Assembly: GCA_902526825.1 (NCBI GenBank)
Contig: CABZMN010000005.1
Location: 5,032-69,031, forward strand
Reading direction: 5' to 3'
DNA: 64,000 nt
Source of the DNA: an uncultured Candidatus Actinomarina sp.
GTDB taxonomy: Bacteria > Actinomycetota > Acidimicrobiia > Actinomarinales > Actinomarinaceae
The notes under the pieces are model-generated. The model made no database searches and was not told the DNA's origin. It saw nothing but the letters and a program-made list of their open reading frames with translations. The translations under genes were made by a program, and so were the position numbers. Position 1 is the stretch's first letter, and each line of letters begins with the position of its first letter. This document shows, one piece after another, positions 9,650-42,670 of this stretch.

Positions 9650-10121
9650 TTAGTGCAATTTTTTTAATTGCTTCTTTTCTTTCTTTTCTAGTTAAAGATG
9701 ATAGTAAAAGCTTGCCTTTTAAATGGTCATATTCATGTTGGAGAACTCTACCCATAAGCTCCTCCCCTTCATATGTAATATCTTCACCGTTTATATTTTG
9801 ACAGTAGATTTTTGAATATTCTGGTCTTTCAATTTCCCAATAATAACCAGGTAATGAAAGACATCCCTCTAAAAATACTGCAGAACCCTCAACTTCGATT
9901 TTCTTTGGATTGACCGCTACGTTCGGACCTTCTCCAGCATCAAAAACAAATATATTTTTATTTATACCAATTTGAGGAGCTGCTAAACCTACTCCAGGTG
10001 CCTCATACATAATTTTGATCATTCTTTGTGATAATTTTTTTAATTCTTCATCAAATTCAAGAATATTTACTGATTTAGATTTAAGGGATGGGTGACCAAA
10101 AGTTACAATTTCATTCATCAT
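9624..10121 (-). CDS. def: peptide deformylase
   Basis: 165 aa with the three PDF motifs GVGLAAPQIG, EGCLSLPG and QHEYDHLKG. Confidence 0.93.
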   Translation of the reverse strand: MMNEIVTFGHPSLKSKSVNILEFDEELKKLSQRMIKIMYEAPGVGLAAPQIGINKNIFVFDAGEGPNVAVNPKKIEVEGSAVFLEGCLSLPGYYWEIERPEYSKIYCQNINGEDITYEGEELMGRVLQHEYDHLKGKLLLSSLTRKERKEAIKKIALNGFPGNDL

Positions 10122-11473
10122 ATAGAAATAACTTTTCTTGGCTCATACTGTAATAGTTTTGAATACATATTTGTAATTTCATTGTAATTAGTATCTTTTG
10201 ATAAATTTATATTGATTTCGTATTCGTATGAATTATTAACTTTTTTAGGTCCTAAAATATATTTATTTTCATATTTAATTATTGAATCAGAAGAAAATTT
10301 AAAAACTTTATGATTAAGGTTTGGTCCCCATTTATTTCTAGATACTAGCTCTTCTTTGCTCCATTTTGTTATATTTGAATTCTTTAAAGATTCTTTTAAG
10401 TTTATATTTTTTGTTGTAAGTATGATCGTTAGACTATTATTTCGATTCGATCTTTCTATTTGTCGTAACAGAAAAATTAAACGTTCAGAATTTAATTTAC
10501 CTTTAAAAGATATTGTTGGGTTTACTAATAAATTTAAATCGTATAAATCATTCTCACTTTTTACAATTTTGAAATCATTAAGTAATTCATTTAAAATATC
10601 GTCGTGAAAAAATAATTTTAAATTTTTATCAGTATGCTTTGTTTTAAATAATTCAACACAATCTTGTAAAGAGTTTCCATGATAAATTTCTACATTACTT
10701 AGATCAGGAGTTTTATAATTTTCAATTTTTTTGAAGTAATTTAGAGATGGATACTCATTGTAATAATGATAATTTCCTCCAAAGTACTTATTTTTAAGTA
10801 CTGATAATTCAATAATGTTTAAAGAATTAAATCTTGGTAAATTGTAAGAATAATCATTGGTATCAAAAAAATGGTAATTTGAAGTTGGATGTGGCTTTAT
10901 TTTCATAAAATTATTCGCAAGTAGTATGCAATTGTTAAATTTATTAACTGTACTTAATGCTTTTTGGATTTCATCTTTGCCACCAGTTTTTTGATAAAAA
11001 TTTATTTTTATTCCTTTTTCTAATAGATATTTATATAAATTTTTAGTTGTTTTTAAAGAAGGAGTAAAGATTATATTTTTAGAATTAGTGGATAACACTT
11101 TGTCTATTTCTGTATTGTTATAAATACTTAATGAACTATTTTTAAACTTTCTATCAAATATAAAATTCATATCCTTATATAGATTGAATATTAAAAAACC
11201 AATATTTAAATAATAAGTAACTGCAAGGTGTTTTAAAAAAAGTAACTGATCTTGATCTAACTTACTAATAATCCTTTCAACAGATTTTAAAGTTTTAATT
11301 TTTAAATCTTTATTATGTATATTTACAACAACAGCAGTTTTCTTTCTATTTCTAAAATTCACAGAAACTATTGAACCAATATCAATTTTATTAGATAAAT
11401 TTTTAGGTACTGAATAAGTAAAAAGTTGAAACTTATATGTGTTATTTGAGATTATTTCTACATCAGCAAACAA
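10118..11473 (-). CDS. priA: primosomal protein N' (PriA)-like, degenerate helicase motifs
   Basis: The N-terminal ~100 aa match the PriA 3'-DNA-binding/winged-helix region (FADVEI...YSVPKNLSNKIDIGSIVSVNFRNRKKTAVVV...LKSV...FLKHLAVTYY). The Walker A and DEEH positions read TPSLKTT and DTNDYSY. Only 2 Cys in 451 aa. Confidence 0.6.
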   Translation of the reverse strand: MFADVEIISNNTYKFQLFTYSVPKNLSNKIDIGSIVSVNFRNRKKTAVVVNIHNKDLKIKTLKSVERIISKLDQDQLLFLKHLAVTYYLNIGFLIFNLYKDMNFIFDRKFKNSSLSIYNNTEIDKVLSTNSKNIIFTPSLKTTKNLYKYLLEKGIKINFYQKTGGKDEIQKALSTVNKFNNCILLANNFMKIKPHPTSNYHFFDTNDYSYNLPRFNSLNIIELSVLKNKYFGGNYHYYNEYPSLNYFKKIENYKTPDLSNVEIYHGNSLQDCVELFKTKHTDKNLKLFFHDDILNELLNDFKIVKSENDLYDLNLLVNPTISFKGKLNSERLIFLLRQIERSNRNNSLTIILTTKNINLKESLKNSNITKWSKEELVSRNKWGPNLNHKVFKFSSDSIIKYENKYILGPKKVNNSYEYEININLSKDTNYNEITNMYSKLLQYEPRKVISI

Positions 11474-14555: not shown

Positions 14556-15628
14556 TAGGGAATTACACCTTCCTCTTTTGCTTTATTTTTCATATTAATA
14601 AATTCTGTGTAGTCATTTGTAAATGACATTTTTCCATTTTTATCTGTCAATAAATAGTATATAAAATCAGTCTCTGGCGTTTCAAATACAGCAATTAATG
14701 ATCGCTCACCGAATCCAGAAATAGGTGTTGGTGGTAAACCTGTATATTTATATGAATTATATGGTGATTCAACTTCCAAATCTACAAGTAACACTTGAGA
14801 CTTTCGCTCTTGTAGAGCATACAATATCATCGCATCAATTTGAAGTAACATTTCATCATACAATCTGTTTTTAATAACAGACGAAACAAGTGATCTGTCT
14901 TCTTGTAGTTTCGATTCGGCTTCAACAAGACTAGCTACTGCAAAAAGTTCACTCGTAGAATTTATCCAATTTGGTGTTGAGTAGGTGACTAATAATCTAT
15001 CAATTACAGTCTCGAGTTCATTAACTAATATTTGTAGAATTTCTTCACCAGATGCATCCAAAGCTATTTGATATGTGTTTGGATATAGAAGTCCTTCCCA
15101 ATTTTGTAACTTTGATATATCACCTAAATAAACATATTTACTTTCTACATTTCCAGATAAAAGTGAATTAGTAAGCAAATCTACATCGTAACCAGTTTGA
15201 GAAGAGATAGATTCAATTGTTTCAGTTATCCAAAGACCTTCAGGAATAGTAATTGTGTAAGTTTTTAACGGAGGGCCCTTTAATAATACATTACTTATCT
15301 CTTCGAACTCTAATTTATTTGAAATTTCATATTCACCAGCTCGTAATTTATCGCCAAGATTTTCATTCCTTAGATAAATTTCAAAAGCTAATGAAGACGA
15401 TATAATTCCTTCTTGTGCAAGTATTGAAGAAATTTGTGCCGCTGAGGAACCTTGTGGAATATTAATTAAAATAATTGATTCTTCTATATCGTCATTATTT
15501 GAAACGATACTTGCTGTTTGGTCTATTGATGTAGCAATATTTGAGGCAAAATTAATTGCAACAAATACAGCAAATATCGTAAATACAACAGATATTACAA
15601 GTCGATTTTTAAAGTAATAATTAATCAT
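14555..15628 (-). CDS. mltG: endolytic murein transglycosylase MltG (YceG family)
   Basis: 357 aa. N-terminal TM anchor, LRAGEYE, ASLVEAESKLQEDRSLVSSVIKNRL and LLQIDAMILY. Confidence 0.85.
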   Translation of the reverse strand: MINYYFKNRLVISVVFTIFAVFVAINFASNIATSIDQTASIVSNNDDIEESIILINIPQGSSAAQISSILAQEGIISSSLAFEIYLRNENLGDKLRAGEYEISNKLEFEEISNVLLKGPPLKTYTITIPEGLWITETIESISSQTGYDVDLLTNSLLSGNVESKYVYLGDISKLQNWEGLLYPNTYQIALDASGEEILQILVNELETVIDRLLVTYSTPNWINSTSELFAVASLVEAESKLQEDRSLVSSVIKNRLYDEMLLQIDAMILYALQERKSQVLLVDLEVESPYNSYKYTGLPPTPISGFGERSLIAVFETPETDFIYYLLTDKNGKMSFTNDYTEFINMKNKAKEEGVIP

Positions 15629-15998
15629 TATTTAAATGTGAAATTAGTATTTCTAATGCCGCTAAGTCATCATTTCTTATTGAATTATCATTTGTTAACT
15701 TTGAAGTCATTCGTTCATCAATTTTATGTATTGGAACATTTGTTATAGATTTTAAATCATTTTCTATAAATTCATCTACAACATTACTCATACGTGTTTG
15801 ATGAGAATTTAATCCTATTGGATATCCAATTACAATCTCATCTATTTCGTGATCAATTAATGCTTGTTTAATTTCATCTAAAACATCCAAAGATTTACTA
15901 TCTAGAACCTTATATGCATAACCCGAATTTATTGATTGCTTTTTTAATGCAAGACCAACATAACGTTCACCATAATCAATAGCTATTATATTTTTCAC
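15621..15998 (-). CDS. ruvX: pre-16S rRNA nuclease / putative Holliday junction resolvase YqgF
   Basis: 125 aa. IIAIDYGERYVGLAL N-terminus and DERMTS motif. Follows alaS as in Actinobacteria. Confidence 0.85.
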   Translation of the reverse strand: MKNIIAIDYGERYVGLALKKQSINSGYAYKVLDSKSLDVLDEIKQALIDHEIDEIVIGYPIGLNSHQTRMSNVVDEFIENDLKSITNVPIHKIDERMTSKLTNDNSIRNDDLAALEILISHLNND

Positions 15999-24190: not shown

Positions 24191-25096
24191 TTATTTATTA
24201 ATTATCCTTGATAAAAATGGAATAGTTACAAATATTGAGCTGTACGTTCCAGATATTATTCCAATAAATAGAGGTAAAGCAAAATCAGTTAGGGTTCCGG
24301 ATAAACCAATTATATTACCAAGAAACAATATAGAAGCTATTGGCACAGCTGATGTAATTGATGTATTGATACTTCTCATTAATATCTCATTAAACGTTTT
24401 GTTTAAAGTTTTTATAGATAAATTACTTTCTTTATTCATTCTCTGACTATCTCTTAATTTATCAAAAAGTATTACAGTATCGTAAAGTGAATAACCAAGA
24501 ATAGTTAAAAGTGCAATGACTGTTGATGGTGTTATTTCAAAATTCAACAATAAATAAATCGTTGTACAAATTAATAGATCATGAATCAAAGCTATTAATG
24601 CAACTATAGAAAATCTAAACTGGAATCTAATTGATATAAGTAAAACTATAAAAGATAAGAATATTACAAGCGCTCGTATTCCCTTAGTTGTAATTTCTTG
24701 TCCAAATGTTGGTCCTACACGTTGGAACTCGATTTCATTACTGTTGACATTAAACTTATTTGCAAGATAATTTAAGAATTCAGTTTCTTGGGATTGTGAT
24801 CCCTCAACAGCTCTGAATAAAACAGTATTTGAATTTTCATATGTTTGATATCTTGAAACTTCTAATATGTTATTGGTTAGTACTTCATCTATATCAGATT
24901 TTGAATACTCACTTGTCAATTGATAAGTTGTACCACCTGTAAAATCGATTGAGAAATTTAAATTTAATATACCTATAGCAGCACAAATTAATACAGTAAG
25001 AAAAATAACAATTTCAACAATAAATATTTTCTGAAGTAATTTACGTTTATTGTAAAAATCGATATTTGTATTGCCTAGAAATAAATTTTTAAACAT
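24191..25096 (-). CDS. secF: protein translocase subunit SecF
   Basis: The SecF pattern begins at MFKNLFLGNTNIDFYNKRK (ATG at 25096, overlapping the secD stop by 8 nt). The track ORF extension to 25222 lies inside secD and is not credible. Confidence 0.9.
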   Translation of the reverse strand: MFKNLFLGNTNIDFYNKRKLLQKIFIVEIVIFLTVLICAAIGILNLNFSIDFTGGTTYQLTSEYSKSDIDEVLTNNILEVSRYQTYENSNTVLFRAVEGSQSQETEFLNYLANKFNVNSNEIEFQRVGPTFGQEITTKGIRALVIFLSFIVLLISIRFQFRFSIVALIALIHDLLICTTIYLLLNFEITPSTVIALLTILGYSLYDTVILFDKLRDSQRMNKESNLSIKTLNKTFNEILMRSINTSITSAVPIASILFLGNIIGLSGTLTDFALPLFIGIISGTYSSIFVTIPFLSRIINK

Positions 25097-26534
25097 TGGT
25101 AATATCCTTATTTTTAATAGGAAACATGAATCTAGAGTTTGTAATATTTGAAACAACAACAGGTACAACATTCCTTGTATAAAGACGCGTGAATAATAAA
25201 TCAAAAATTGTTGCAATACCAAGTACTAATGCAAAACCACGTATTGGACCTACAGCTAAAATATAAAGTAAAAAAGCTGCAGATAATGATACAAAATCAG
25301 CAGTTAATATTGTTTTCCATGATTCGTCTACAGCTTTATTTGCTGCAAATTCGAAAGATCTTCCAACTTTAATTTCATCTTTTAGTTTTTCAAAAGTAAC
25401 AATATAAGAATCCGCAGCTAGACCAATTGAAACAATAATTCCAGCAATACCTGCAAGTGTTAATGTAAATCCTTGTAAATTTCCTAAAACTGAAATTACT
25501 GAATAAAACAAAAGCCCAAACATTGATAAACCAAATACGGATATGAAACCTAGAAAACGGTAATAAAGAATGATTATTATCGAAATTACAATTAGACCAA
25601 TTAATCCAGCTTGCAACCCAAGATTTAATGTGTCCTCTCCTAAACTTGCGGAAACTTTCTGAATGGAAGATCTTTCAAAAGATACTGGCAATGCACCATA
25701 TCTCAAAATTACAGCAAGATTATTTGCTGACTCCCCTGTGTCCGTATTTCCCATCGATATTGCTGCTGTTCCACCTGTTATACCTATATCAGGATTGACA
25801 TCTAGAGCTATACCTGGTGCTGAGACTATTTCACCATCTAAGACAATAGCTAATCGTCTTTTATCACCAGTTTCTCTTGCTAATTGTTTTGTTAAATCTG
25901 TAAATTTAACAGCTGAAGAGTCTTTAAATTCTAAAGATACTATCCATTCATTCTCAGGGTATGCTGCAATTGCATCTTCAATATCATTACCAGTTAAGAC
26001 TGCTGGACCTAATTTATAAATTACAGGGTAACTTGATGTTATAGATAAAAGATATGATTCAGTATTTGGGTTATCAACTAAAGTAATTCCAATTTCTTCA
26101 TCAACACCAGGCGCTGATACTTTAATAGGATTCTCTGGATCATCGGGATTAAGAAGATATTCAAAAGCAGGTGAATATCCAGTATCAAAAGAGGAAGCTA
26201 GTACTGGTCTAAACGTCAATAAGCCAGTTGCACCTAGAGCTTCAATTGCGCGTTCTTGATCTGTAACTCCTGGAAGTTGAACTAGAACAGCATTATTTCC
26301 ACTTATAGATATTTCTGGTTCTTGTACGTCACCAAATGCCTCAATTCTTGTTCTCATAATTTCAACAGACTTCTCTAAAACTTCTGGATCAGTATCCTGA
26401 TCAGCTGTAAGTATTACAGAGATCCCACCTTGTAAATCTAAACCAAGTTTTGGTGATAAAGATGATTGATATACGTAAACAAATAAACCAATTGCGAGGA
26501 TAGGTAGAAAAAGAAATTTAAGGGTTCGTCTCAT
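25089..26534 (-). CDS. secD: protein translocase subunit SecD
   Basis: 481 aa. LGLDLQGGISV, a periplasmic-type loop and six C-terminal TM segments. yajC-secD-secF order. Confidence 0.9.
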   Translation of the reverse strand: MRRTLKFLFLPILAIGLFVYVYQSSLSPKLGLDLQGGISVILTADQDTDPEVLEKSVEIMRTRIEAFGDVQEPEISISGNNAVLVQLPGVTDQERAIEALGATGLLTFRPVLASSFDTGYSPAFEYLLNPDDPENPIKVSAPGVDEEIGITLVDNPNTESYLLSITSSYPVIYKLGPAVLTGNDIEDAIAAYPENEWIVSLEFKDSSAVKFTDLTKQLARETGDKRRLAIVLDGEIVSAPGIALDVNPDIGITGGTAAISMGNTDTGESANNLAVILRYGALPVSFERSSIQKVSASLGEDTLNLGLQAGLIGLIVISIIIILYYRFLGFISVFGLSMFGLLFYSVISVLGNLQGFTLTLAGIAGIIVSIGLAADSYIVTFEKLKDEIKVGRSFEFAANKAVDESWKTILTADFVSLSAAFLLYILAVGPIRGFALVLGIATIFDLLFTRLYTRNVVPVVVSNITNSRFMFPIKNKDITNV

Positions 26535-26782
26535 GAAATACTATTAATAAATGATGTCTTAATTTTTATTTCACCATTTTTAAGAACTAATGTAACCGTA
26601 TCATCACTTATAGATGTAACTCTTCCATAAATACCAGAATCTGTAATTACATCCTCACCAATTTTTAGGTTTTCTACAAATTCTTTGTGTTTCTTATTTC
26701 GTCTTCGTTGAGGTAGGTATAAAACTGCATAAAATATTACAAATACAAAAACTAAAGGTAATAAAGATACAACGTCACTCAT
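26531..26782 (-). CDS. yajC: preprotein translocase subunit YajC
   Basis: 83 aa. Single TM segment followed by PQRRRNKKHKEFVENLKIGEDVIT.GIYG.V. Confidence 0.8.
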   Translation of the reverse strand: MSDVVSLLPLVFVFVIFYAVLYLPQRRRNKKHKEFVENLKIGEDVITDSGIYGRVTSISDDTVTLVLKNGEIKIKTSFINSIS

Positions 26783-27851
26783 TTATAAATTCCTTTTTAA
26801 AACTTTCAAAACTTGAGTTTAATATACTTTCTCTTGCTTCTTCAATAATTTGTTCTGTTTGAATTATATTATGAACAGTTAAATATAACCAAGAAGTTGT
26901 ATTTTCATTTTGAAAAAGATGACGTAAGTAAGCTTTTGAATAATTTAAACAGGTAAAGCAATTGCAATTAATATCTATAGGATTTTCATCATTCTTAAAT
27001 TTTTGATTTTTTATATTGATGTATGAATTACGAGTTATTAATTTTCCATGCCTTGCAAGTCTTGCAGGCCAAACACAATCAAACATGTCAACACCAGAAT
27101 CAATCAAATCAATTAAACCTACGGTGTCACCTAAACCCATAACATATCTTGGCTTATCTATTGGAAGTATTGAATTTAAATGTTCTACGACCGTTTTTCT
27201 TTCATTACTTGTTTCGCCGATTGCTAATCCACCTATTGCATATCCGTCAAAATTTAATTCAATCATTGATTTTGCTGAAGTTTCTCTTAAATCAAGATTT
27301 AGACCTCCTTGGACTATGCCAAACAAATCTTGTTTATTGTTTTTATGCACACTTTTTGCTTTTTCAGCCCACTGACTTGTTATTTCTATTGCTTTCATTT
27401 GATCATCATATGATCTGTCATAATCAATTAAATAATCAAATATCATTGCAATATTGCTGCCTAAAAGATTTTGTGTGTTTATTGATTCTTCAGGAGTCAT
27501 TTTAAAAAAGGATCCATCATAAATATTTTTAAATTCAATACCATCATTTAATAATTTTGTTGGTAATGACCAAGCTTGAAAACCTCCAGAGTCAGTAAGT
27601 ATTAATTTATCCCAGTTCATAAATTTATGTAATCCACCTAAATCATTTATTGACTGGGCCCCTGGTCTTAGATGAAGATGGTATGCATTAGCTAGAAGTA
27701 TTGATGTCTTATCTAGATATTGATGAGGAGTAGATTTAATTGCACCTCTTGTAGCAACAGGCATAAATGTAGGAGTCTGTACTTCAATATTATTTATAGA
27801 CAATGTCCCAGCTCGAGCATTTTTGTCATTTGAAATTAATTTATATGCCAT
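26775..27851 (-). CDS. tgt: tRNA-guanine transglycosylase
   Basis: 358 aa. TPTFMPVATRGAIKS, LTDSGGFQ, GLAIGE and zinc site CNCFTC...YLRHL. Confidence 0.93.
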   Translation of the reverse strand: MAYKLISNDKNARAGTLSINNIEVQTPTFMPVATRGAIKSTPHQYLDKTSILLANAYHLHLRPGAQSINDLGGLHKFMNWDKLILTDSGGFQAWSLPTKLLNDGIEFKNIYDGSFFKMTPEESINTQNLLGSNIAMIFDYLIDYDRSYDDQMKAIEITSQWAEKAKSVHKNNKQDLFGIVQGGLNLDLRETSAKSMIELNFDGYAIGGLAIGETSNERKTVVEHLNSILPIDKPRYVMGLGDTVGLIDLIDSGVDMFDCVWPARLARHGKLITRNSYINIKNQKFKNDENPIDINCNCFTCLNYSKAYLRHLFQNENTTSWLYLTVHNIIQTEQIIEEARESILNSSFESFKKEFINE

Positions 27852-28851
27852 TGATTTTTATTTTAAACATTACTGCATCACCAAAACTTAGGAACTTCAT
27901 ATTATTTTCTAAAGCAAAAGCATAAAGATTTTTCCAGGAGTCGCCATAAATAGCTTGAACAATTGACAGTAATGAACTCTTAGGAGCATGAAAGTTTGTT
28001 ATTAGATAGTCTGCAACATTAAATTTGAATCCTTTTGTTATAAACAAATTTGTATTCCCTTTAAACGTAGAAGTTTTATATACATGCTCTAAAGTTCTTA
28101 ATGTTGTCGTACCAACACAAACAATATTATATCCATTCTTTTTTTTGGCAATTATTTCATTGTAAGTTGCCTCATTAATCTCATAATCTTCAGAATGTAT
28201 ATCATAATCTTCTACGTATTCAGTACTAATAGGTTTGAATGTACCGAGGCCAATATCGAGATTAAGGAATTTTATATAAGTATCATTTTTTTCCAATTGT
28301 TGAAATAAATTTGGAGTGAAATGAAGAGCAGCTGTAGATGCAGCCACTGAAAATCCATTCTCACTAAAAAAAGTCTTGTAGTGTTCATATTTATAATCCA
28401 TATCATCAATGTATGGTGGCAAAGGAGTTGATCCATATTTATTGATTATTTGTTCTAAGGGTAAAGAAAATTTTATTCTGAATCCATCGTTTACATTTTT
28501 GATAATATTTATTGAGAAATTTTCAAGATCAATTTGTTCTCCAATTATCTTTTTTCCATTAAATTTAAGTAAACAATCTGCTGAATATTCATCAACTATC
28601 TTAAGTATGAATATTTCAACGTTTCCATGGGTATGTTTTTTAATCGTTTTGACTCTTACATCTATAACTTGAGAGTTGTTAAAGACAAGTAATGAACGGT
28701 TTGGAACTATATTATCTATATTTTCAAATTTATGAATTATCATACTTTCAGCATCAAGAATTTTCGAATCCTCTGGATTTGTGTATGGGTCTTGGGCTAT
28801 AGAAGATTTTGGTAGATGATAATCTAAATTAGAAATATGGGTTTTGTTCAA
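27841..28851 (-). CDS. queA: S-adenosylmethionine:tRNA ribosyltransferase-isomerase
   Basis: 336 aa. LDYHLPKSSIAQDP, AASTAALHFT, VGTTTLRTLE and FLSFGDAM-like C-terminus. Confidence 0.9.
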   Translation of the reverse strand: MNKTHISNLDYHLPKSSIAQDPYTNPEDSKILDAESMIIHKFENIDNIVPNRSLLVFNNSQVIDVRVKTIKKHTHGNVEIFILKIVDEYSADCLLKFNGKKIIGEQIDLENFSINIIKNVNDGFRIKFSLPLEQIINKYGSTPLPPYIDDMDYKYEHYKTFFSENGFSVAASTAALHFTPNLFQQLEKNDTYIKFLNLDIGLGTFKPISTEYVEDYDIHSEDYEINEATYNEIIAKKKNGYNIVCVGTTTLRTLEHVYKTSTFKGNTNLFITKGFKFNVADYLITNFHAPKSSLLSIVQAIYGDSWKNLYAFALENNMKFLSFGDAVMFKIKINGI

Positions 28852-29205
28852 TTACTTATTTAAAAGTTTAATAAAAAGTTCATATGACATTGATACAACT
28901 TCTGGCATTCCATCATTTGTTCGTCTTTTGTTGTCACCCTGTCTCTTAAGTTTTTTCCAAAATAAGACCGTATTTTCATCGGTTGACTTTTCAATTGCTT
29001 TACCAAGTGACTGATGTAAATTTAGATTTTGTCGTGATTTTGCTTCAATAAAATACTCTTCTCCGTCAACAAACAATTGTATGTCACCCAAATCATTAGA
29101 ACCACCTTCAGCAAAACGTTGAGCTTTCATATTTGAATTTTCATTCAATCTTTTTACGATATTTGATTCGTATGTAGTTCCCTGTTTTTTTGCTTTATTA
29201 ACCAC
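28852..29205 (-). CDS. small PD-(D/E)xK nuclease, Hjc/YraN-like (candidate Holliday junction resolvase)
   Basis: 117 aa. G9-TTY-E13...R30-FAEGGS36-N-D38-LG-D41-IQL...I-E54-A-K56 reproduces the E / D / ExK pattern and spacing of archaeal Hjc-type resolvases. Abuts queA with 0 nt spacing and lies 19 nt after yebC. Confidence 0.55.
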   Translation of the reverse strand: MVNKAKKQGTTYESNIVKRLNENSNMKAQRFAEGGSNDLGDIQLFVDGEEYFIEAKSRQNLNLHQSLGKAIEKSTDENTVLFWKKLKRQGDNKRRTNDGMPEVVSMSYELFIKLLNK

Positions 29206-29224
29206 ACAATAATTGTAGCTAAAA

Positions 29225-29974
29225 TTATTCTGTTATTGCTTTTTCTAATAGTTTGTTATCAATGTCAAAATTTGCATATACGTTTTGAACATCATCTAAA
29301 TCTTCTAATGCTTCTATCAACTTCGACAATAAGTTAAATTTTTCAATATCTAAATTTACAGAACTGGATGGTAAATAAGCGATCTCGGAATTTACTAAGT
29401 TAAAACCTGAATTTCTAAATAATTGATCTACTTTCTGAAATTCAGAAGGTTGAAATTCAAACGTTACACCGGCTTCATTTTCTTGAATATCCATACAATT
29501 ATTTTCTATTGCAAGATCTATTATCTCTTCTTTATATTCATCAAATTGAAATATTGCTTTTCTTGAAAATAAGTAATTAACACTTCCAGGAGATCCGGTA
29601 TTCCCTTCATATTTATTAAAAGTTGCTTTTACATCTGATGAAGTTCTATTTCTATTGTCAGTGACGCATTCAACTAATATTGCAACACCATTTGGTCCAT
29701 AACCTTCATATGTAATCTCATCAAATGATTCAGTTGATGAATCACCTGACATTCTTTTTAACGCATTGTCAATATTTGAATTGGGTACTGAATTTGATTT
29801 GGCTTTACTAATCGCTTGATAAAGTGCAGCATTATTATTTGGATCAGCTCCACCATTTTTGGCTGCAACTTCGATACCCCTAATTAGTTTGGCAAATAAT
29901 TTTCCTCTTTTAGCATCATTTGCACCTTTTTTTCTTTTTATCGTTGACCACTTAGAGTGACCTGACATTAACAC
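29225..29974 (-). CDS. yebC: YebC/PmpR family transcriptional regulator
   Basis: 249 aa with MSGHSKWSTIKRKKGANDAKRGKLF. The likely start is the third codon (29968). Confidence 0.93.
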   Translation of the reverse strand: MLMSGHSKWSTIKRKKGANDAKRGKLFAKLIRGIEVAAKNGGADPNNNAALYQAISKAKSNSVPNSNIDNALKRMSGDSSTESFDEITYEGYGPNGVAILVECVTDNRNRTSSDVKATFNKYEGNTGSPGSVNYLFSRKAIFQFDEYKEEIIDLAIENNCMDIQENEAGVTFEFQPSEFQKVDQLFRNSGFNLVNSEIAYLPSSSVNLDIEKFNLLSKLIEALEDLDDVQNVYANFDIDNKLLEKAITE

Positions 29975-33271: not shown

Positions 33272-33840
33272 TTAAGATTCTTATATAGAATATTAAATCT
33301 TTGATAAACAGTAATCCACAAAATAAATGTGAAGATATAAATACTGTAAAAAGGCAAGTTAAAAAGCATGAATAGTACTCCAAAAATTACTCGTTCTGGA
33401 CGAGCAGCTACACCAACTTTGTTATCTATACCCAGCAACTCACCACGAGATCGTAAATACGGAATTAAATTTGACCCAGTAACAATTGATAATATAACAA
33501 ATAATTCAAAATCTGTTGAAGTAAACTTAATAGCAACTACGCTCCATATGAAAAGCTCACCAACTCTGTCAATAAAAGAATCAAGTAAAGCCCCTTTTTT
33601 TGAAATCATATTGGTTGTTCTTGCTAAAGGTCCATCTAAACCGTCTATGGCGCTACCAATAAAAATTGTTATGGCACCTATTGTTTTAGTATCATTTAAA
33701 AACAAATAACATCCAATAATTACTATCAATAATCCACAAGAAGATAGTACATTTGGCTTGATACCAAGTTTTATACAAATATTAATAAATGGAATGGCAA
33801 ATTTTTCAGAAGCAGATTTAAAATACTTTTCAAGCATCAA
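33268..33840 (-). CDS. pgsA: CDP-alcohol phosphatidyltransferase (phosphatidylinositol-phosphate synthase-like)
   Basis: 190 aa, polytopic. Signature DGLDGPLAR-x8-G-x3-D-x3-D, seen as AIDGLDGPLARTTNMISKKGALLDSFIDRVGE. Confidence 0.8.
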   Translation of the reverse strand: MMLEKYFKSASEKFAIPFINICIKLGIKPNVLSSCGLLIVIIGCYLFLNDTKTIGAITIFIGSAIDGLDGPLARTTNMISKKGALLDSFIDRVGELFIWSVVAIKFTSTDFELFVILSIVTGSNLIPYLRSRGELLGIDNKVGVAARPERVIFGVLFMLFNLPFYSIYIFTFILWITVYQRFNILYKNLK

Positions 33841-34321
33841 TTATTTCTTCAGTATATATATCACCTATAAGAACGAGATTGAAAGCATCAATTTCTAAGA
33901 TAGTTTTTAAAGTTGGAGGATTTTTATGATCATATACAATGACTGTCCAAACTGGATTTAAGAGTCTTAATTTGAATTTGAATTGAAATGTTAAAGCTAT
34001 GGAGTAATACCCTATTGAATGATTGATTTTATCTGTTAAAAATTCAAGAATTTCATTCTGATTTAAAGAGATTTTGTTATCAATAGCATATATAAAAATA
34101 CTTGTTATTCCCAAAATTATTGAGGATGGTAATAAATTACTTAAGTCTAATGTAAAGTTTAGACCTAAAGCAATTATGGATGATAATAAAACTAGATGTG
34201 CAAACTTTCTTCTTCTAAGAGGGTTAGGAATAACGTAGCTTCCTACTGCCAGAGAGTTTAAATCATCAGGCACGTTTTCTTTCTGAACGTCCTTTTCATC
34301 AATGTTTATGCCTTCAGCCAT
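33830..34321 (-). CDS. hypothetical membrane protein
   Basis: 163 aa. Acidic N-terminus and two TM segments (LVLLSSIIALGLNF, SSIILGITSIFIYAI). Start shares 1 nt with the thrS stop. No motif recognised. Confidence 0.5.
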   Translation of the reverse strand: MAEGINIDEKDVQKENVPDDLNSLAVGSYVIPNPLRRRKFAHLVLLSSIIALGLNFTLDLSNLLPSSIILGITSIFIYAIDNKISLNQNEILEFLTDKINHSIGYYSIALTFQFKFKLRLLNPVWTVIVYDHKNPPTLKTILEIDAFNLVLIGDIYTEEIIDA

Positions 34322-39882: not shown

Positions 39883-41511
39883 TTAGCCAAAAGAAGGAGA
39901 TTTGGTATTAGGAACGAGTGAAATCCAAACTTTTCCTTTAGGAACATACAATATATTGTTGTTGCTATCAATAATATGAAATGGATCTTCATTTGATCCT
40001 CTTTTCCATCTTGCATCTATAAGCTTTCCACCATGTGCGATAATTGCTCTACCTTCTCCCACAGTTTTAACTGATGGAAGCTGCAATGGATGTAAATATG
40101 GTTCACAAAACAAAGCTATGACTGTATCTGTGGAAATTTGACTACTGTTGCCATTGATATCAATTGTCGTATGCACATTATCTGAACTTTTATTTTTATA
40201 TGCGTCATAATAAGTTCTGGTATATTTATTTCCATTCCATGTCCAAGTAGTACGAGTATATCCTGAAAAAGAAAGAGTTAAATAACTATTAGAAGTCCAT
40301 TCGGAAAAAGTGGGATCTCCCCATGGGAAAAGAGGTTGAGGCGTTTCAACTTTTTTGTACCCTCTTGATAAAGCATGTTCCTTTAATTTATTAGTGTCAG
40401 CATATAAGTTATGAGGTGCTCTTCTGGAAGATATTCTAAAAAATTCTGGTCTTCTGTCAGTAATCACAGGAACACCCATTGCTTCGATTTGTGGGATTAA
40501 ACCTCCTGTTGCACCACTTACAACAAGTACTCCCCCTAACGGTTTTAAAACAGTTGGGTCTGTTGGTCTTGCTGATCTTATTGGTCCATGATAAGTAGTA
40601 TCGCTTTGGTAAAAGATGTTTATGAATCTTGTCATACCACCTTCAACTAAAACTTCAACAACAGCATCAGCATTTTGTGGACCAGACTGTGGTCTAGCAT
40701 TAACATTATTATCATTTTTAACACCAATAACTATTGAATTATTTGCACCACCAGGCATCGGTAAACCATTTACTGGAGAATTAACCCCATCTGAATAATT
40801 TTGTGTTGGGACTCTCCCGATTGATGCATAAGAAGTTTCTACAGGAATAGTTGTAGTTGTTGTTGAATCCGAAGTACCTTCACCAATTTCAATGTAAGAT
40901 GCTTCGCCTTTTTCTAAAGCGGCTTTTGTTATTGGACCAAGTATACCGTCAACAACAAGACCTGATAATCGTTGAAATTCACGAATGGCATTTTTAGTAC
41001 CAATACCATTTATGCCATCAATATCCTTAGTGTATAAATTCAATTCTTTTAATTTTCTTTGAGCATCCTCTATTTCAGCAGAATATACAACAGTTTCAAC
41101 AGTATCAACATCACCTTCACCAATTGCAATATATGATGCTTCGCCTTTTTCTAAAGCGGCTTTTGTTAATGGACCAAGTATACCGTCAACAACAAGACCT
41201 GATAATCGTTGAAATTCACGAATGGCATTTTTAGTTTCAGAATTATTTATGCCATTTATATCGCCATTGTATAAATTTAATTCTTTTAATTTACTTTGAG
41301 CATCTTCAATATTTTCAATAGTTTTAGAAAATATTGTCGTTGTTGTAGTGGTAGTACTTGTAGTTGTAGAAATTATTGTACTTGTTGTAGCTTCGATTTG
41401 TGTTGACGTTGTAGATGTACTTGTATCTACTGTTTCTACATCTAGTGAAGAACAACCTGTAAATGTAGTTAAGAATAAAATTAAGAGAATTAATTTAAAA
41501 TTTTTATTCAC
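39883..41511 (-). CDS. lipoprotein with two peptidoglycan-binding (PG_binding_1-like) repeats and a DUF3048 domain
   Basis: 542 aa. Lipobox LTTFTGCSS and a Thr/Ser-rich linker. Two 79-aa repeats with LKELNLY..DI.GI...TKNAIREFQRLSGLVVDGILGP.TKAAL. C-terminal ARPQSGPQNADAVVEVLVEGGMTRF...IRSARPTD matches the YerB/DUF3048 pattern. Confidence 0.75.
   Translation of the reverse strand: MNKNFKLILLILFLTTFTGCSSLDVETVDTSTSTTSTQIEATTSTIISTTTSTTTTTTTIFSKTIENIEDAQSKLKELNLYNGDINGINNSETKNAIREFQRLSGLVVDGILGPLTKAALEKGEASYIAIGEGDVDTVETVVYSAEIEDAQRKLKELNLYTKDIDGINGIGTKNAIREFQRLSGLVVDGILGPITKAALEKGEASYIEIGEGTSDSTTTTTIPVETSYASIGRVPTQNYSDGVNSPVNGLPMPGGANNSIVIGVKNDNNVNARPQSGPQNADAVVEVLVEGGMTRFINIFYQSDTTYHGPIRSARPTDPTVLKPLGGVLVVSGATGGLIPQIEAMGVPVITDRRPEFFRISSRRAPHNLYADTNKLKEHALSRGYKKVETPQPLFPWGDPTFSEWTSNSYLTLSFSGYTRTTWTWNGNKYTRTYYDAYKNKSSDNVHTTIDINGNSSQISTDTVIALFCEPYLHPLQLPSVKTVGEGRAIIAHGGKLIDARWKRGSNEDPFHIIDSNNNILYVPKGKVWISLVPNTKSPSFG
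40876..41349 (-). repeat. in-frame tandem duplication, 2 x 237 bp
   Basis: Copy 1 begins at 40876 and copy 2 at 41113 (accttcaccaatt...). The core includes a 66-nt run with no differences (tggaccaagtataccgtcaacaacaagacctgataatcgttgaaattcacgaatggcatttttagt). Outer boundaries are approximate. Confidence 0.85.
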
Positions 41512-41554
41512 ACTAAAACTTTAGTAGAAAATTTTAATATTTTACTTCAAATAT

Positions 41555-42670
41555 TTAATCTTTATCCCAAGAAATACTTCCATCTAATGGCATCACATGA
41601 ATCCATTGTTTACTTGGTGGTACCTCAATAATATTTTGATTTGAATCTAAAAATTCAAACTGATTTGCAATATCGTTTCTTCGCCAAGTACCTTCAATGT
41701 ATTTACCATTATGAAATATTGTTAAAGGACCAACACCAACAGTTAGTACGCTTGGTAAAGTTGTTTTTTCATCGTTGTAAAGAGGACCTTGAATTACTAC
41801 AATTGTTGGAGATTTTATAATGTCTGTATAACCATCCCTAGTGATAAAATTATGAGCAACGGCATCATTATCAGGTGAATATGCATCAACAATGAATCTA
41901 TTATATTGTTCATTATCTTTTTTCCAAATAATAGTAGTAAATTCACTATATTTAATTGTTACTCTGTTCGCACCGTCTTGCCAAGATGTTTGATCATTAC
42001 CAAAGCTGTATAGTGGTTTTACATCTTGATTAAATAAAAAACCTCTTTTTTCTACATACTCTCTTACAAGTTCTGTATCGGCATACAAATTATGAGGTGC
42101 TTTTCTACTTCCAATTCTAAACATAGTAGGTGAAGACACTTCTTCAAGTACGGGAACGCCTAACTCTCTAATTGTTGGAATTAATCCATCAGTAGCTCCA
42201 GATACAACAAGAATTCCACCATATGGTCGTATTAAAGTTGGATCCGTAGGTCTTGCTGACCTAACAGGACCAACATAAGAACTAGAACTATCCATAAAGA
42301 ATGCTAGAAATCTAGTCATTCCACCTTCAACTAGAATTTCCATAACACTATCCGCTTGTTGAAGTCCAGACTGGGGGCGTGCATTTAAATTATTATCTAT
42401 TTTAAATGCAAGTACTCTTCTTGGTCTTTTAAGCCATAATTCTGGTGAAATCTCAAGTCCAGTAAATGGTGACATCTTTTCACTGTCATATATATAACTT
42501 TCTATAATTTCTTTTTCTGCGTTATTATCATTTATCGAATTTTCAGTTGTCTCTTGCTCAGCTTGAGCAACAGATGTTGAAGTAGTTGTATCTAGAGTTT
42601 CGGTCGTTTCATTTGAAGCAGAACATAAAACTAAAAATAAGGTCAGTAAAATTAAACCGAGTTTTTTCAT
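41555..42670 (-). CDS. DUF3048-domain lipoprotein (YerB-like)
   Basis: 371 aa. Lipobox LVLCSAS and a Thr/Glu-rich linker. ARPQSGLQQADSVMEILVEGGMTRFLAFF, VRSARPTDP and KAPHNLYADT are paralogous to the C-terminal half of 39883..41511. Confidence 0.75.
   Translation of the reverse strand: MKKLGLILLTLFLVLCSASNETTETLDTTTSTSVAQAEQETTENSINDNNAEKEIIESYIYDSEKMSPFTGLEISPELWLKRPRRVLAFKIDNNLNARPQSGLQQADSVMEILVEGGMTRFLAFFMDSSSSYVGPVRSARPTDPTLIRPYGGILVVSGATDGLIPTIRELGVPVLEEVSSPTMFRIGSRKAPHNLYADTELVREYVEKRGFLFNQDVKPLYSFGNDQTSWQDGANRVTIKYSEFTTIIWKKDNEQYNRFIVDAYSPDNDAVAHNFITRDGYTDIIKSPTIVVIQGPLYNDEKTTLPSVLTVGVGPLTIFHNGKYIEGTWRRNDIANQFEFLDSNQNIIEVPPSKQWIHVMPLDGSISWDKD

What the first reader, a model, noticed from the sequence alone, without database searches (positions are those of the whole stretch)
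28852..29205. Hjc/YraN-like PD-(D/E)xK nuclease occupies the slot where actinobacterial ruvC-ruvA-ruvB normally sits
The minus-strand order thrS, pgsA, acyltransferase, pimA, pdxS, pdxT, yebC ... yajC, secD, secF, rel, hisS, aspS, alaS matches the conserved actinobacterial arrangement. In Mycobacterium tuberculosis this is roughly Rv2614c down to Rv2555c, and there yebC is followed by ruvC, ruvA and ruvB. No RuvA, RuvB or RuvC ORF exists anywhere in this 64-kb window. Instead, a 117-aa ORF lies 19 nt after yebC and abuts queA with no spacer. Its sequence reads G9-TTY-E13 ... R30-F-A-E-G-G-S36 ... D38-L-G-D41-I-Q-L ... I-E54-A-K56. That is the E / D / E-x-K catalytic pattern, spacing and size of archaeal Holliday junction resolvase Hjc and related mini-nucleases (RecU core, YraN/UPF0102). 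This suggests non-orthologous displacement of the RuvABC resolvasome in a streamlined bacterium, which I am not aware has been described for this lineage.
Basis: partly seen in the sequence, partly recalled or inferred. Interest (0 to 1): 0.7.

Follow-up and report, generated by a model that had tools for sequence, protein, structure and literature searches.

The report
Phage-type Hjc resolvase replaces ruvCAB
In the tiny, very abundant marine actinobacteria of the order Actinomarinales, a strictly conserved 117-residue nuclease lies exactly where relatives keep ruvC-ruvA-ruvB; it has the fold and catalytic residues of archaeal and phage Hjc Holliday-junction resolvases and most likely took over junction resolution, though it is untested whether RuvAB is missing from the whole genome.

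Summary
The ORF at 28852-29205 (-) is real. It starts 19 nt after yebC and its stop codon abuts the queA start. A model built on a deep alignment (pLDDT 93.8) has a PD-(D/E)xK core whose best solved matches are archaeal Hjc resolvases. The E13/D41/E54/K56 tetrad aligns with the Hjc catalytic residues and is invariant in 41 orthologues (median dN/dS 0.09).

About 40 Actinomarinales species carry pdxS-pdxT-yebC-X-queA-tgt-yajC-secD. Acidimicrobiia outgroups and unrelated bacteria carry yebC-ruvC-ruvA-ruvB(-queA...) at the same place. By gene index, X appears in the published list of 227 single-copy core genes of 84 closed Actinomarina genomes, named only as a fosmid ORF.

The nearest non-Actinomarinales relatives (42-51% identity) sit in phage recombination modules (ERF or Rad52-like, SSB, WhiB), so X looks like a domesticated actinophage resolvase. 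RecU and YraN are poor comparisons.

Not shown: that RuvA, RuvB and RuvC are absent from the whole genome. I found none in the window or in 49 related loci, but could not read complete genomes. Cleavage activity is also unshown. Verdict: a new variant of a known kind, moderately high interest.

The parts
28852..29205 (-). X: 117-aa Hjc-like PD-(D/E)xK nuclease, the putative Holliday-junction resolvase (GTG start, TAA stop)
   Evidence: ORF. AF2 model pLDDT 93.8 with alpha-beta-beta-beta-alpha-beta order. Foldseek PDB top hits are Hjc 1gef, 1ob9, 4tkd, 2wj0 and 2eo0, probability about 1.0. Family profile against PDB: Hjc at E=1.3e-3. phrog_244 at E=1e-11. Median dN/dS 0.09.
29167..29169 (-). 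Codon for E13 (motif I glutamate, helix 1)
   Evidence: Aligns with Hjc E12 (S. solfataricus) and E9 (P. furiosus). E in 68 of 71 family members and in 41 of 41 orthologues.
29083..29085 (-). Codon for D41 (motif II aspartate, start of strand 2)
   Evidence: Aligns with Hjc D42. Invariant in 71 of 71 and 41 of 41.
29038..29046 (-). Codons for E54-A55-K56 (motif III, E-x-K, strand 3)
   Evidence: Aligns with Hjc E55-x-K57. E in 69 of 71. K in 59 and R in 12 of 71. Invariant E and K in the 41 orthologues.
29206..29224 (-). 19-nt spacer between the yebC stop and the X start
   Evidence: Sequence read. No terminator-like site at either boundary of X.
29225..29974 (-). yebC (TACO1/YebC family), the gene that precedes ruvC in most bacteria
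   Evidence: Pfam PF20772 and PF01709. 40% identity to E. coli YebC. yebC is followed by ruvC-ruvA-ruvB in outgroups.
27841..28851 (-). queA, whose start codon abuts the X stop
   Evidence: Pfam PF02547 at E=4e-87. queA follows ruvB in unrelated bacteria (L107, L170, L179, L196).
25089..27851 (-). tgt, yajC and secD, the rest of the tightly packed downstream block
   Evidence: Pfam tables of the equivalent loci. ORFs overlap or abut.
15621..15998 (-). ruvX/yqgF (RNase H-fold nuclease), the only other junction-nuclease-type gene in the window and a rival candidate
   Evidence: Pfam PF03652 at E=7.5e-19.

Best explanation
X is a cellular Holliday-junction (branched-DNA) resolvase of the Hjc type, that is, the archaeal and phage type of PD-(D/E)xK nuclease.

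Its family lives mainly in actinophage recombination modules. One copy was captured at the base of the order Actinomarinales. It was inserted between yebC and queA in place of ruvC-ruvA-ruvB and has since been kept as a single-copy core gene, co-transcribed with yebC and queA-tgt-yajC-secDF.

Inferred mechanism, by analogy with Hjc: a homodimer binds four-way junctions by their structure rather than their sequence. The metal site formed by E13, D41, E54 and K56 makes two symmetrical nicks, giving ligatable duplexes. An Hjc-type enzyme does not need to scan for a cognate sequence as RuvC does, so it could work without the RuvAB motor, which may have allowed all three ruv genes to be lost together.

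Shown here: the fold, the aligned and conserved catalytic residues, purifying selection, core status, the syntenic replacement, and the phage-module relatives.

Inferred only: dimerisation, junction cleavage, and loss of RuvAB and RuvC from the whole genome.
For: Fold and active site:
- The deep-alignment AF2 model has pLDDT 93.8 and pTM 0.85.
- Foldseek against PDB puts Hjc or Hje structures at ranks 1-3 and at 15 of the top 19 places, with probability 0.93-1.0 and TM about 0.5. All other hits are PD-(D/E)xK nucleases.
- Foldseek against BFVD puts phage 'Holliday junction resolvases' on top, at TM 0.63-0.71.
- The family HMM against PDB gives seven top hits that are all Hjc-type resolvases (E from 1.3e-3 to 1.7e-2). 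They include the biochemically active Thermus phage Hjc_15-6 (7bgs), and E/D/ExK are in register (PMC8805305).
- phrog_244 matches at E=1e-11 over residues 1-116.
- The catalytic residues are conserved across 71 family members and invariant in 41 orthologues. Median dN/dS is 0.09.

Synteny:
- All Actinomarinales loci that extend past yebC show pdxS-pdxT-yebC-X-queA-tgt-(yajC)-secD. This covers about 40 GTDB species plus metagenome contigs, with X identity down to 65%.
- Acidimicrobiia outgroups L080 and L052 have pdxS-pdxT-yebC-ruvC-ruvA(-ruvB).
- Unrelated bacteria have yebC-ruvC-ruvA-ruvB-queA-tgt-yajC-secD.
- The sister order UBA5794 has ruvA, ruvB and ruvC (PMC12008989 Table S7).

Core status:
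- Gene 2S_u16243665_587 in the 227-gene single-copy core list of 84 closed genomes lies at the index expected for X, between relA (_581) and pdxS (_590).

Origin:
- Actinomarinales X is monophyletic (NJ bootstrap 181 of 200).
- Its nearest relatives (42-51% identity) lie in phage-like contigs. These carry ERF+SSB+WhiB (L094), endolysin+PDDEXK_1+methylase+Prim-Pol (L092), Rad52-like+MT-A70 (L008) or SSB (L009), and two are IMG/VR viral genomes.
- Cultured Microbacterium and Arthrobacter phage 'Holliday junction resolvase' genes match the N-terminal catalytic half.

Absence of Ruv where I could look:
- No RuvA, RuvB or RuvC was found in the window or in 49 related loci.

Published background:
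- An archaeal Hjc complements E. coli ruvC (cited in PMC10956419).
- Population genomics points to strong homologous recombination in Actinomarinales (PMC7771536), so some resolvase is needed.
Against: - There is no biochemical evidence for this family. The phage annotations are themselves homology-based.
- X does not reach the curated threshold of any Pfam or NCBIfam model. PF24608 scores 23 bits against a cut-off of 27. PF01870 (Hjc) gives no hit for X and weak hits for 2 of 71 relatives.
- Structural similarity to solved Hjc is moderate (TM about 0.5, E about 1e-3), and the C-terminal half differs.
- The position of P. furiosus R10, which is essential in Hjc, holds S or T in X.
- Genome-wide absence of RuvABC was not tested. 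In some Acidimicrobiia (L056, L066, L079) ruvCAB is not next to yebC, so relocation does occur.
- RuvX is present and has been reported to cut junctions in mycobacteria.
- Fewer than 2% of bacteria, mostly parasites, lack RuvAB (PMC3403352), so the prior for complete loss is low.
Confidence: 0.68

Rival explanations
1. X is an accessory or back-up structure-specific nuclease. Actinomarinales still carry ruvAB, and perhaps ruvC, elsewhere in the about 1.1-Mb genome. The ruv genes simply moved, and X does an additional job or replaces only RuvC, as RecU does in Firmicutes where RuvAB is kept.
For: - Absence of Ruv was shown only for this locus, which is 64 kb of about 1.1 Mb.
- In Acidimicrobiia L056, L066 and L079, ruvCAB is not adjacent to yebC.
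- More than 98% of bacteria keep RuvAB, and every known RuvC-to-RecU replacement kept RuvAB (PMC3403352).
Against: - The exact in-place substitution between yebC and queA is explained most simply by one replacement event.
- No ruv or Holliday term appears in any table of the closed-genome study, including the 227-gene core list that does contain X. This is weak evidence, because recA is not in that list either.
- Closed genomes score only 90-96% 'completeness', which fits truly missing universal markers but is not specific.
Confidence: 0.22
2. X is a PD-(D/E)xK nuclease with a role unrelated to recombination. It could be a restriction-like or defence nuclease, a nicking repair endonuclease, or a domesticated selfish phage gene. 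Junctions would then be handled by RuvX/YqgF or left to other pathways.
For: - PD-(D/E)xK folds serve many functions.
- A few family members give weak hits to Mrr_cat, Vsr and a pPIWI-associated REase.
- RuvX is present at 15621-15998.
Against: - PADLOC gives no hit, and there is no adjacent methylase or partner gene.
- X is a strict single-copy core gene under strong purifying selection in a housekeeping operon, unlike variable defence islands.
- Its phage relatives sit beside recombinases and SSB.
- The best structural and profile matches are specifically junction resolvases.
- RuvX is near-universal even in bacteria that have RuvC, and in E. coli it is mainly an rRNA-processing nuclease (general knowledge).
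Confidence: 0.08
3. The ORF is spurious or a decaying pseudogene left by a phage insertion.
For: It is split by frameshifts in two long-read MAGs (L021, L051).
Against: - Intact orthologues of 117-121 aa occur in 41 distinct sequences with dN/dS of 0.09.
- The N-terminus MVNK and all catalytic residues are invariant.
- The two frameshifts fall in A-homopolymers of long-read assemblies, so they are probably assembly errors.
Confidence: 0.01

Closest known systems
Archaeal Hjc (P. furiosus 1GEF/1IPI, S. solfataricus 1HH1, A. fulgidus 2WCW; Pfam PF01870)
   Same: Similar size (117 aa against about 120-143 aa) and the same alpha-beta-beta-beta-alpha-beta PD-(D/E)xK core. The N-terminal K-x-K-G-(S/T)-x-x-E helix matches. 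The E / D / E-x-K tetrad is in register, and so is an arginine equivalent to Pfu R25 (R30). Hjc gives the best solved-structure and profile matches.
   Different: X is bacterial, not archaeal. Sequence similarity is confined to the first 60 or so residues, and TM is only about 0.5. X does not reach the PF01870 threshold. The essential R10 position holds S or T. X has its own conserved C-terminal motifs (K73, W83-K84-K/R85, R95, G99) and no known PCNA-binding tail.
Hjc_15-6 of Thermus phage Tth15-6 (PDB 7BGS/7BNX; PMC8805305)
   Same: A bacteriophage-encoded archaeal-type resolvase with the E-(S)D-E-V-K motif and demonstrated cleavage of X-shaped DNA. The family profile hits it at E=0.01.
   Different: It is 163 aa, comes from a thermophilic phage, is only distantly related, and is a phage gene rather than a fixed chromosomal core gene.
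Actinophage 'Holliday junction resolvase' genes (phrog_244; Microbacterium phages Caron gp47 and Cen1621 gp40, Arthrobacter phage Yang gp36, Gordonia phage Gustav; near Pfam PF24608 PDDEXK_15)
   Same: These are the closest sequence and structure relatives (phrog_244 E=1e-11; BFVD TM 0.63-0.71). Uncultured relatives at 42-51% identity lie in ERF or Rad52-like plus SSB modules.
   Different: They are mobile phage genes, and their function is annotated by homology only. X is a monophyletic cellular lineage in a housekeeping operon.
RecU of Firmicutes and Mollicutes
   Same: RecU is the textbook case of non-orthologous displacement of RuvC by a PD-(D/E)xK resolvase (PMC3403352).
   Different: It belongs to a different PD-(D/E)xK family. 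X gives no Pfam RecU hit, and RecU-like proteins appear only at ranks 16 and 28 in BFVD. recU lies far from ruvAB, and RuvAB is retained. Here the new gene sits in the ruv slot, and ruvA and ruvB are gone from it as well.
RuvC (with RuvAB)
   Same: The same genomic position directly downstream of yebC, and the same presumed task.
   Different: RuvC has an RNase H/integrase fold, cuts at a sequence consensus, and is coupled to the RuvAB motor.
RusA of the E. coli cryptic prophage DLP12
   Same: It is a precedent, from general knowledge, that a phage-derived resolvase can substitute for RuvABC in a cell.
   Different: RusA has a different fold and is normally silent. It is a suppressor, not a fixed core gene.

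Membership tests
Hjc-type Holliday junction resolvase (PD-(D/E)xK; Pfam PF01870) | PD-(D/E)xK alpha-beta-beta-beta-alpha-beta core fold, with the closest structural neighbours being Hjc | tested here: met
   AF2 model pLDDT 93.8 with H4-21, E26-30, E42-46, E49-57, H63-74, E79-84. Foldseek PDB ranks 1-3 and most of the top 19 are Hjc or Hje, probability 0.93-1.0, TM about 0.5.
Hjc-type Holliday junction resolvase (PD-(D/E)xK; Pfam PF01870) | Catalytic tetrad E ... (P/V/S)D ... E-x-K at the equivalent positions | tested here: met
   E13, D41, E54 and K56 align with Sso Hjc E12, D42, E55 and K57. They are conserved in 68, 71, 69 and 71 (59 K plus 12 R) of 71 family members, and invariant in 41 orthologues.
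Hjc-type Holliday junction resolvase (PD-(D/E)xK; Pfam PF01870) | Match to the curated family model above its gathering score | tested here: not met
   X gives no PF01870 hit at E<=10. Only 2 of 71 relatives give weak hits, the best at E=0.0044. The family profile against Hjc sequences reaches only E=1.3e-3.
Hjc-type Holliday junction resolvase (PD-(D/E)xK; Pfam PF01870) | Basic residues essential for junction binding and cleavage in P. furiosus Hjc (R10, R25, K81) | tested here: inconclusive
   R30 aligns with the R25-equivalent and is conserved in 67 of 71. The R10 position holds S or T. K84/K85 may correspond to K81, but the C-terminal halves do not align reliably (residue list from PMC10956419).
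Hjc-type Holliday junction resolvase (PD-(D/E)xK; Pfam PF01870) | Homodimer that makes paired, structure-selective nicks in four-way junctions | not testable with these tools
   No multimer prediction or biochemistry was available.
Pfam PF24608 PDDEXK_15 (phage putative PDDEXK endonuclease) | Score above the curated cut-off over the whole domain | tested here: not met
   23 bits against a cut-off of 27, E=8e-5, covering only model positions 1-73 of 164. 11 of 71 relatives match at E<0.01.
PHROG phrog_244 ('RusA-like Holliday junction resolvase', phage DNA metabolism) | Significant full-length match to the family profile | tested here: met
   E=1e-11, 46.5 bits, residues 1-116. The word 'RusA-like' in the PHROG name refers to function, not fold, because the predicted fold is PD-(D/E)xK.
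RecU (PF03838) | Sequence or structural match to RecU | tested here: not met
   No Pfam or NCBIfam hit. No RecU in the top 50 PDB Foldseek hits. RecU-like phage proteins appear only at BFVD ranks 16 and 28.
YraN/UPF0102 (PF02021) and VRR-NUC (PF08774) | Sequence or structural match | tested here: not met
   No Pfam hit. The only VRR-NUC signal is 4qbn at E=0.099 with the family profile.
Non-orthologous displacement of the RuvABC resolvasome | The new resolvase-type gene occupies the ancestral ruvC-ruvA-ruvB position and is fixed in the clade | tested here: met
   yebC-X-queA in about 45 Actinomarinales loci, against yebC-ruvC-ruvA-ruvB(-queA) in outgroups. X is in the 227-gene core list of 84 closed genomes by gene index.
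Non-orthologous displacement of the RuvABC resolvasome | RuvC, and RuvA and RuvB, absent from the complete genome | not testable with these tools
   They are absent from the window and from 49 loci, 902 kb in total but highly redundant. Complete genomes could not be fetched.
Anti-phage defence nucleases (PADLOC) | Match to any defence-system model | tested here: not met
   0 families at E<=1.

The most novel reading that the evidence does not exclude
Actinomarinales, among the most abundant free-living bacteria of the surface ocean, may have lost the entire RuvABC machinery, including the near-universal RuvAB branch-migration motor. They would then resolve recombination intermediates with a single 117-residue, phage-derived, sequence-independent Hjc-type nuclease. 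That would be an archaeal-style solution fixed in a bacterium by in-place replacement of the ruv operon. Any branch migration would be left to other helicases such as RecG or RadA, or dispensed with.
Probability: 0.5. Interest if true: 0.78.

Novelty: new variant of a known kind. Interest (0 to 1): 0.62.

Why it matters
RuvAB is present in more than 98% of sequenced bacteria, and the exceptions are mostly parasites (PMC3403352). The only well-known replacement of RuvC, by RecU, keeps RuvAB.

Here a free-living, globally abundant lineage shows a clean in-place swap of ruvC-ruvA-ruvB for one small phage-type Hjc nuclease. Its populations appear to recombine intensively (PMC7771536).

If the whole-genome loss is confirmed, four things follow:
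- It would set the minimal recombination toolkit of a free-living cell.
- It would be a natural example of a phage gene domesticated into core DNA metabolism.
- It would be a bacterial counterpart of the archaeal Hjc system.
- It would explain part of the 'missing' universal markers in closed Actinomarina genomes, which affects completeness estimates.

It also assigns a function to a strictly core 'hypothetical' gene of this order, and gives an experimentally tractable 117-aa resolvase.

Tried and rejected
- The first AF2 run, on a shallow alignment of close orthologues, gave pLDDT 64 and meaningless Foldseek hits such as kinases. I discarded it in favour of the 71-sequence alignment.
- NCBIfam and PADLOC gave no hits.
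- The search for related loci on viral contigs with alignment A2 failed because no stretch was conserved enough. A single-protein query worked.
- I searched three Actinomarinales and UBA5794 papers and their supplements for ruv, Holliday or recG. Only UBA5794 tables list them. None of the tables I could read annotates Actinomarinales gene content, and Table S9 carries no names.
- The attempt to find an Actinomarinales RuvB used an AT-codon Walker-A pattern in metagenome contigs. The scan stopped at 120 rows. 119 were RuvB genes from assorted habitats, and none had Actinomarinales-like neighbours, so the result is inconclusive.
- I did not run a RuvB query through the search for homologous proteins. 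Only the 120 best hits are listed, and they would all be close relatives of whatever query was used.
- I considered and rejected RecU, YraN and VRR-NUC membership, a defence nuclease, and a spurious ORF (see the membership tests and rivals).
- Promoter and terminator scans showed nothing above chance.
Full report
**1. The observation**

The window is about 30% G+C. It comes from a member of Candidatus Actinomarinales: the nearest genome loci are Actinomarina single-cell and metagenome assemblies with up to 98-100% protein identity.

The ORF at 28852-29205 on the minus strand encodes 117 aa from a GTG start. The nucleotide read shows the yebC stop ending at 29225 and a 19-nt spacer. It also shows the X stop codon TAA followed at once by the TTG start of queA.

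Pfam scans and the gene tables of equivalent contigs confirm the minus-strand order. It runs thrS, (163-aa ORF), pgsA, acyltransferase, GT4 glycosyltransferase, pdxS, pdxT, yebC, X, queA, tgt, yajC, secD, secF, rel, metallo-beta-lactamase, hisS, aspS, alaS, ruvX, mltG/yceG, efp, nusB.

No RuvA, RuvB or RuvC is encoded in the 64 kb:
- tblastn with the E. coli proteins found nothing better than E=0.5, while E. coli YebC found its orthologue at 7e-55.
- HMMs that I built from 76 RuvA, 123 RuvB and 50 RuvC sequences gave no hit at E<=10 among all ORFs of 40 aa or more.

**2. What the protein is**

On its own, X gives only sub-threshold matches. These are Pfam PF24608 'phage putative PDDEXK endonuclease' (23 bits against a cut-off of 27), nothing in NCBIfam, and weak phmmer hits to Sulfolobus Hjc (E about 0.7). 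Those weak hits nevertheless put E13, D41, E54 and K56 opposite Hjc E12, D42, E55 and K57. PHROGs gives phrog_244, a phage 'Holliday junction resolvase' family, at E=1e-11 over the full length.

An exhaustive profile search found 251 family representatives at the 50% identity level. I aligned 71 full-length members (alignment A2). Using that alignment:
- The family profile hits only Hjc-type resolvases at the top of the PDB list. These are S. solfataricus Hjc (1.3e-3), ST1444 (5.8e-3), Thermus phage Hjc_15-6 7BGS (0.01) and A. fulgidus Hjc (0.017). The catalytic motifs are in register.
- AlphaFold2 gives a confident model (pLDDT 93.8, pTM 0.85) with the canonical helix, three strands, helix, strand order. 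A first model from close orthologues only was poor (pLDDT 64) and I discarded it.
- Foldseek against PDB puts P. furiosus Hjc, S. solfataricus Hje and Hjc, A. fulgidus Hjc and ST1444 on top, with probability about 1.0, TM about 0.5 and a best E of 8.5e-4. Everything else in the list is a PD-(D/E)xK nuclease.
- Foldseek against predicted viral structures puts phage 'Holliday junction resolvases' on top with better TM scores of 0.63-0.71.

Across the 71 family members, E13 is E in 68, D41 in 71, and E54 in 69. K56 is K in 59 and R in 12. Further near-invariant positions are K6, G9, T10, R30, E33, G35, D38, G40, K73, W83, K84, R95 and G99.

RecU, YraN/UPF0102 and VRR-NUC are not supported. They gave no Pfam hits and only low-ranked structural hits. 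PADLOC finds no defence-system relation.

**3. It is a conserved, selected, core gene**

A word-indexed search found 173 homologues of 66-93% identity, all from marine assemblies. NCBI names them hypothetical proteins of Actinomarinales MAGs, and JGI already calls several of them 'Holliday junction resolvase'.

From 41 distinct orthologous coding sequences:
- The median pairwise dN/dS is 0.09 (maximum 0.30) over 220 pairs with 0.05 < dS < 1.5.
- All sixteen residues I checked in the 41 orthologues are invariant: the catalytic tetrad plus twelve conserved family positions.
- Two long-read MAGs show frameshifts at A-homopolymers, which are most likely assembly errors.

The preprint 'Actinomarina, resolved' lists 227 single-copy clusters present in all 84 closed genomes. 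Entry 2S_u16243665_587 ('MedDCM-OCT-S43-C55-cds16', UniRef90_S5DYB0) lies six genes after relA (_581) and three genes before pdxS (_590). That is exactly the index expected for X from the gene order seen here. This identification rests on gene order, not on a sequence comparison.

**4. The slot**

A scan of one genome per GTDB species with the window's YebC returned about 42 Actinomarinales loci and many outgroups. tblastn on these loci gave the following:
- Every Actinomarinales locus that extends past yebC has pdxS-pdxT-yebC-X-queA-tgt-yajC-secD. X identity goes down to 65%.
- One deep lineage (L004-L007) lacks yajC but keeps X.
- None of these loci contains a Ruv gene.

The outgroups show the ancestral arrangement:
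- Acidimicrobiia L080 has pdxS-pdxT-yebC-ruvC-ruvA-ruvB. L052 has the same order up to its contig end.
- Actinobacteria-like metagenome contigs at 43-47% G+C have the same order (L111, L113, L124, L155).
- Unrelated bacteria carry yebC-ruvC-ruvA-ruvB-queA-tgt-yajC-secD or large parts of it (L170, L179, L107, L196).

So X stands precisely where ruvC-ruvA-ruvB stands elsewhere, between the same two neighbours.

The sister order UBA5794 has ruvA, ruvB and ruvC in nearly all genomes, according to the KEGG table of PMC12008989.

Three Acidimicrobiia (L056, L066, L079) have yebC without adjacent ruv genes, so the ruv genes can relocate.

Tight spacing, start-stop abutment, and the lack of terminator-like sites at the boundaries of X are compatible with co-transcription.

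**5. Origin**

The non-Actinomarinales relatives that I could place on contigs are all in phage-like neighbourhoods:

| Protein (identity to X) | Locus | Neighbourhood |
|---|---|---|
| P0127 (51%) | L094 | ERF recombinase, SSB and WhiB |
| P0272, from the P0130 cluster (49%) | L092 | endolysin amidase, PDDEXK_1 exonuclease, DNA methylase, Prim-Pol/AAA_25 primase |
| P0300, from the P0135 cluster (42%; cluster representative 45%) | L008 | Rad52-like annealase and MT-A70 methylase |
| P0283, from the P0131 cluster (45%) | L009, L010 | many small ORFs and SSB |

Identities are those of the cluster representatives; the sequences on the marine contigs themselves read 42-45% by tblastn.

Two IMG/VR viral genomes encode proteins 82% identical to P0135. 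These contigs range from 35% to 61% G+C.

Annotated 'Holliday junction resolvase' genes of Microbacterium and Arthrobacter phages match the N-terminal catalytic half.

In a neighbour-joining tree, the Actinomarinales sequences are monophyletic in 181 of 200 bootstraps, and P0127 is among their nearest neighbours.

The simplest history is a single capture of an actinophage resolvase at the base of the order. The composition of X is now indistinguishable from the host's, so the event is old.

**6. Mechanism (inferred)**

By analogy with Hjc, X should form a homodimer that recognises four-way junctions by their structure. It should cut two opposed strands through a metal site formed by E13, D41 and E54, with K56 assisting.

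Hjc enzymes cut independently of sequence. Archaeal Hjc can replace RuvC in E. coli (both summarised in PMC10956419). A phage Hjc-type enzyme cleaves X-DNA in vitro (PMC8805305).

RuvC needs RuvAB-driven branch migration to find its consensus. An Hjc-type enzyme does not, which offers a rationale for losing all three ruv genes at once. This last step is speculation.

Homologous recombination appears important in Actinomarinales populations (PMC7771536), so a resolvase is expected.

**7. What remains open**

I could not read whole Actinomarinales genomes. The negative Ruv result covers the window and 49 loci. That is 902 kb in total, but it is the same region many times over.

None had Actinomarinales-like neighbours, so it is uninformative.

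No paper or supplement on Actinomarinales that I searched mentions ruv genes or Holliday junctions.

RuvAB is missing from fewer than 2% of bacteria (PMC3403352). I therefore put complete loss at roughly even odds. The replacement of RuvC at this locus is much more likely than that.

RuvX/YqgF is present and is a minor rival for junction cleavage.

**8. Comparison and novelty**

X works like Hjc and belongs to the Hjc-like branch of the PD-(D/E)xK superfamily. It fails the curated thresholds of PF01870 and PF24608, and it differs from Hjc in its C-terminal half. It is best described as a member of an actinophage resolvase family (phrog_244) that has become a cellular core gene.

Displacement of RuvC by an unrelated resolvase is known from RecU, and so is substitution by a prophage resolvase (RusA). 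Three things appear to be undescribed:
- a phage Hjc-type enzyme fixed in a free-living bacterium;
- its position exactly in the ruvCAB slot;
- ruvA and ruvB also gone from that slot.

I rate it a new variant of a known kind, with interest 0.62. The interest would rise if genome-wide loss of RuvAB is confirmed.

Noticed in passing
window 15621-15998 (-): A RuvX/YqgF homologue (PF03652, E=7.5e-19) lies directly downstream of alaS, as in mycobacteria. It is the only other junction-nuclease-type gene in the window.
   Followed up: partly
window 10118-11473 (-): This 451-aa protein matches only the PriA 3'-DNA-binding domain, with no helicase domain detected at E<=1e-5. It may be a shortened PriA in this streamlined genome.
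   Followed up: no
window 33830-34321 (-); L001 4886-5377; L004 2878-3351: A 155-163-aa ORF between thrS and pgsA is conserved across Actinomarinales lineages but has no Pfam hit.
   Followed up: no
L004-L007 (for example L004 9366-11890): In one deep-branching Actinomarinales lineage, yajC is missing between tgt and secD, while X and the rest of the block are kept.
   Followed up: partly
L021 10698-11049; L051 about 10760-11112: X is interrupted by frameshifts in two MAGs built from long reads (LRMED-050 and SD3109). The breaks fall at A-homopolymers, so they are probably assembly errors rather than pseudogenes.
   Followed up: partly
L056, L066, L079 (Acidimicrobiia, 64-67% G+C): In these relatives yebC is not followed by ruvC-ruvA-ruvB. 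In L056 the next genes are on the opposite strand and resemble arsA or ParA-type ATPases by their P-loop (not scanned). The ruv genes can therefore relocate within the class.
   Followed up: partly
L170, L179, L107, L196, L138 (metagenome contigs): The order (yebC-)ruvC-ruvA-ruvB-queA-tgt-yajC-secD recurs in unrelated bacteria. The neighbours of X on both sides are therefore the ancestral neighbours of the ruv operon.
   Followed up: yes
L094 3557-6413; L092 558-10335; L008 8001-12030: Uncultured actinophage-like contigs carry compact recombination modules that include the X-type nuclease. The modules combine ERF or a Rad52-like protein with SSB and WhiB, or a PDDEXK_1 exonuclease with a methylase and Prim-Pol. 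The contigs at 35-38% G+C may be phages of low-GC marine actinobacteria.
   Followed up: partly
window 39883-42670 (-): Two adjacent DUF3048 paralogues lie here, and the first also has peptidoglycan-binding repeats.
   Followed up: no
window 50537-51955 (-), 61141-63503 (-), 59613-60980 (-): Several large ORFs have no Pfam match at E<=1e-5 (472, 387 and 399 aa), or only a weak 'New_glue' match (455 aa). They may belong to the flexible or envelope-related gene pool.
   Followed up: no
Supplementary Table 1 of bioRxiv 10.64898/2026.04.03.716425: Closed circular Actinomarina genomes score only 90-96% 'completeness'. Some supposedly universal marker genes are therefore truly absent from this lineage. 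Loss of RuvA and RuvB would contribute, but this was not checked.
   Followed up: no
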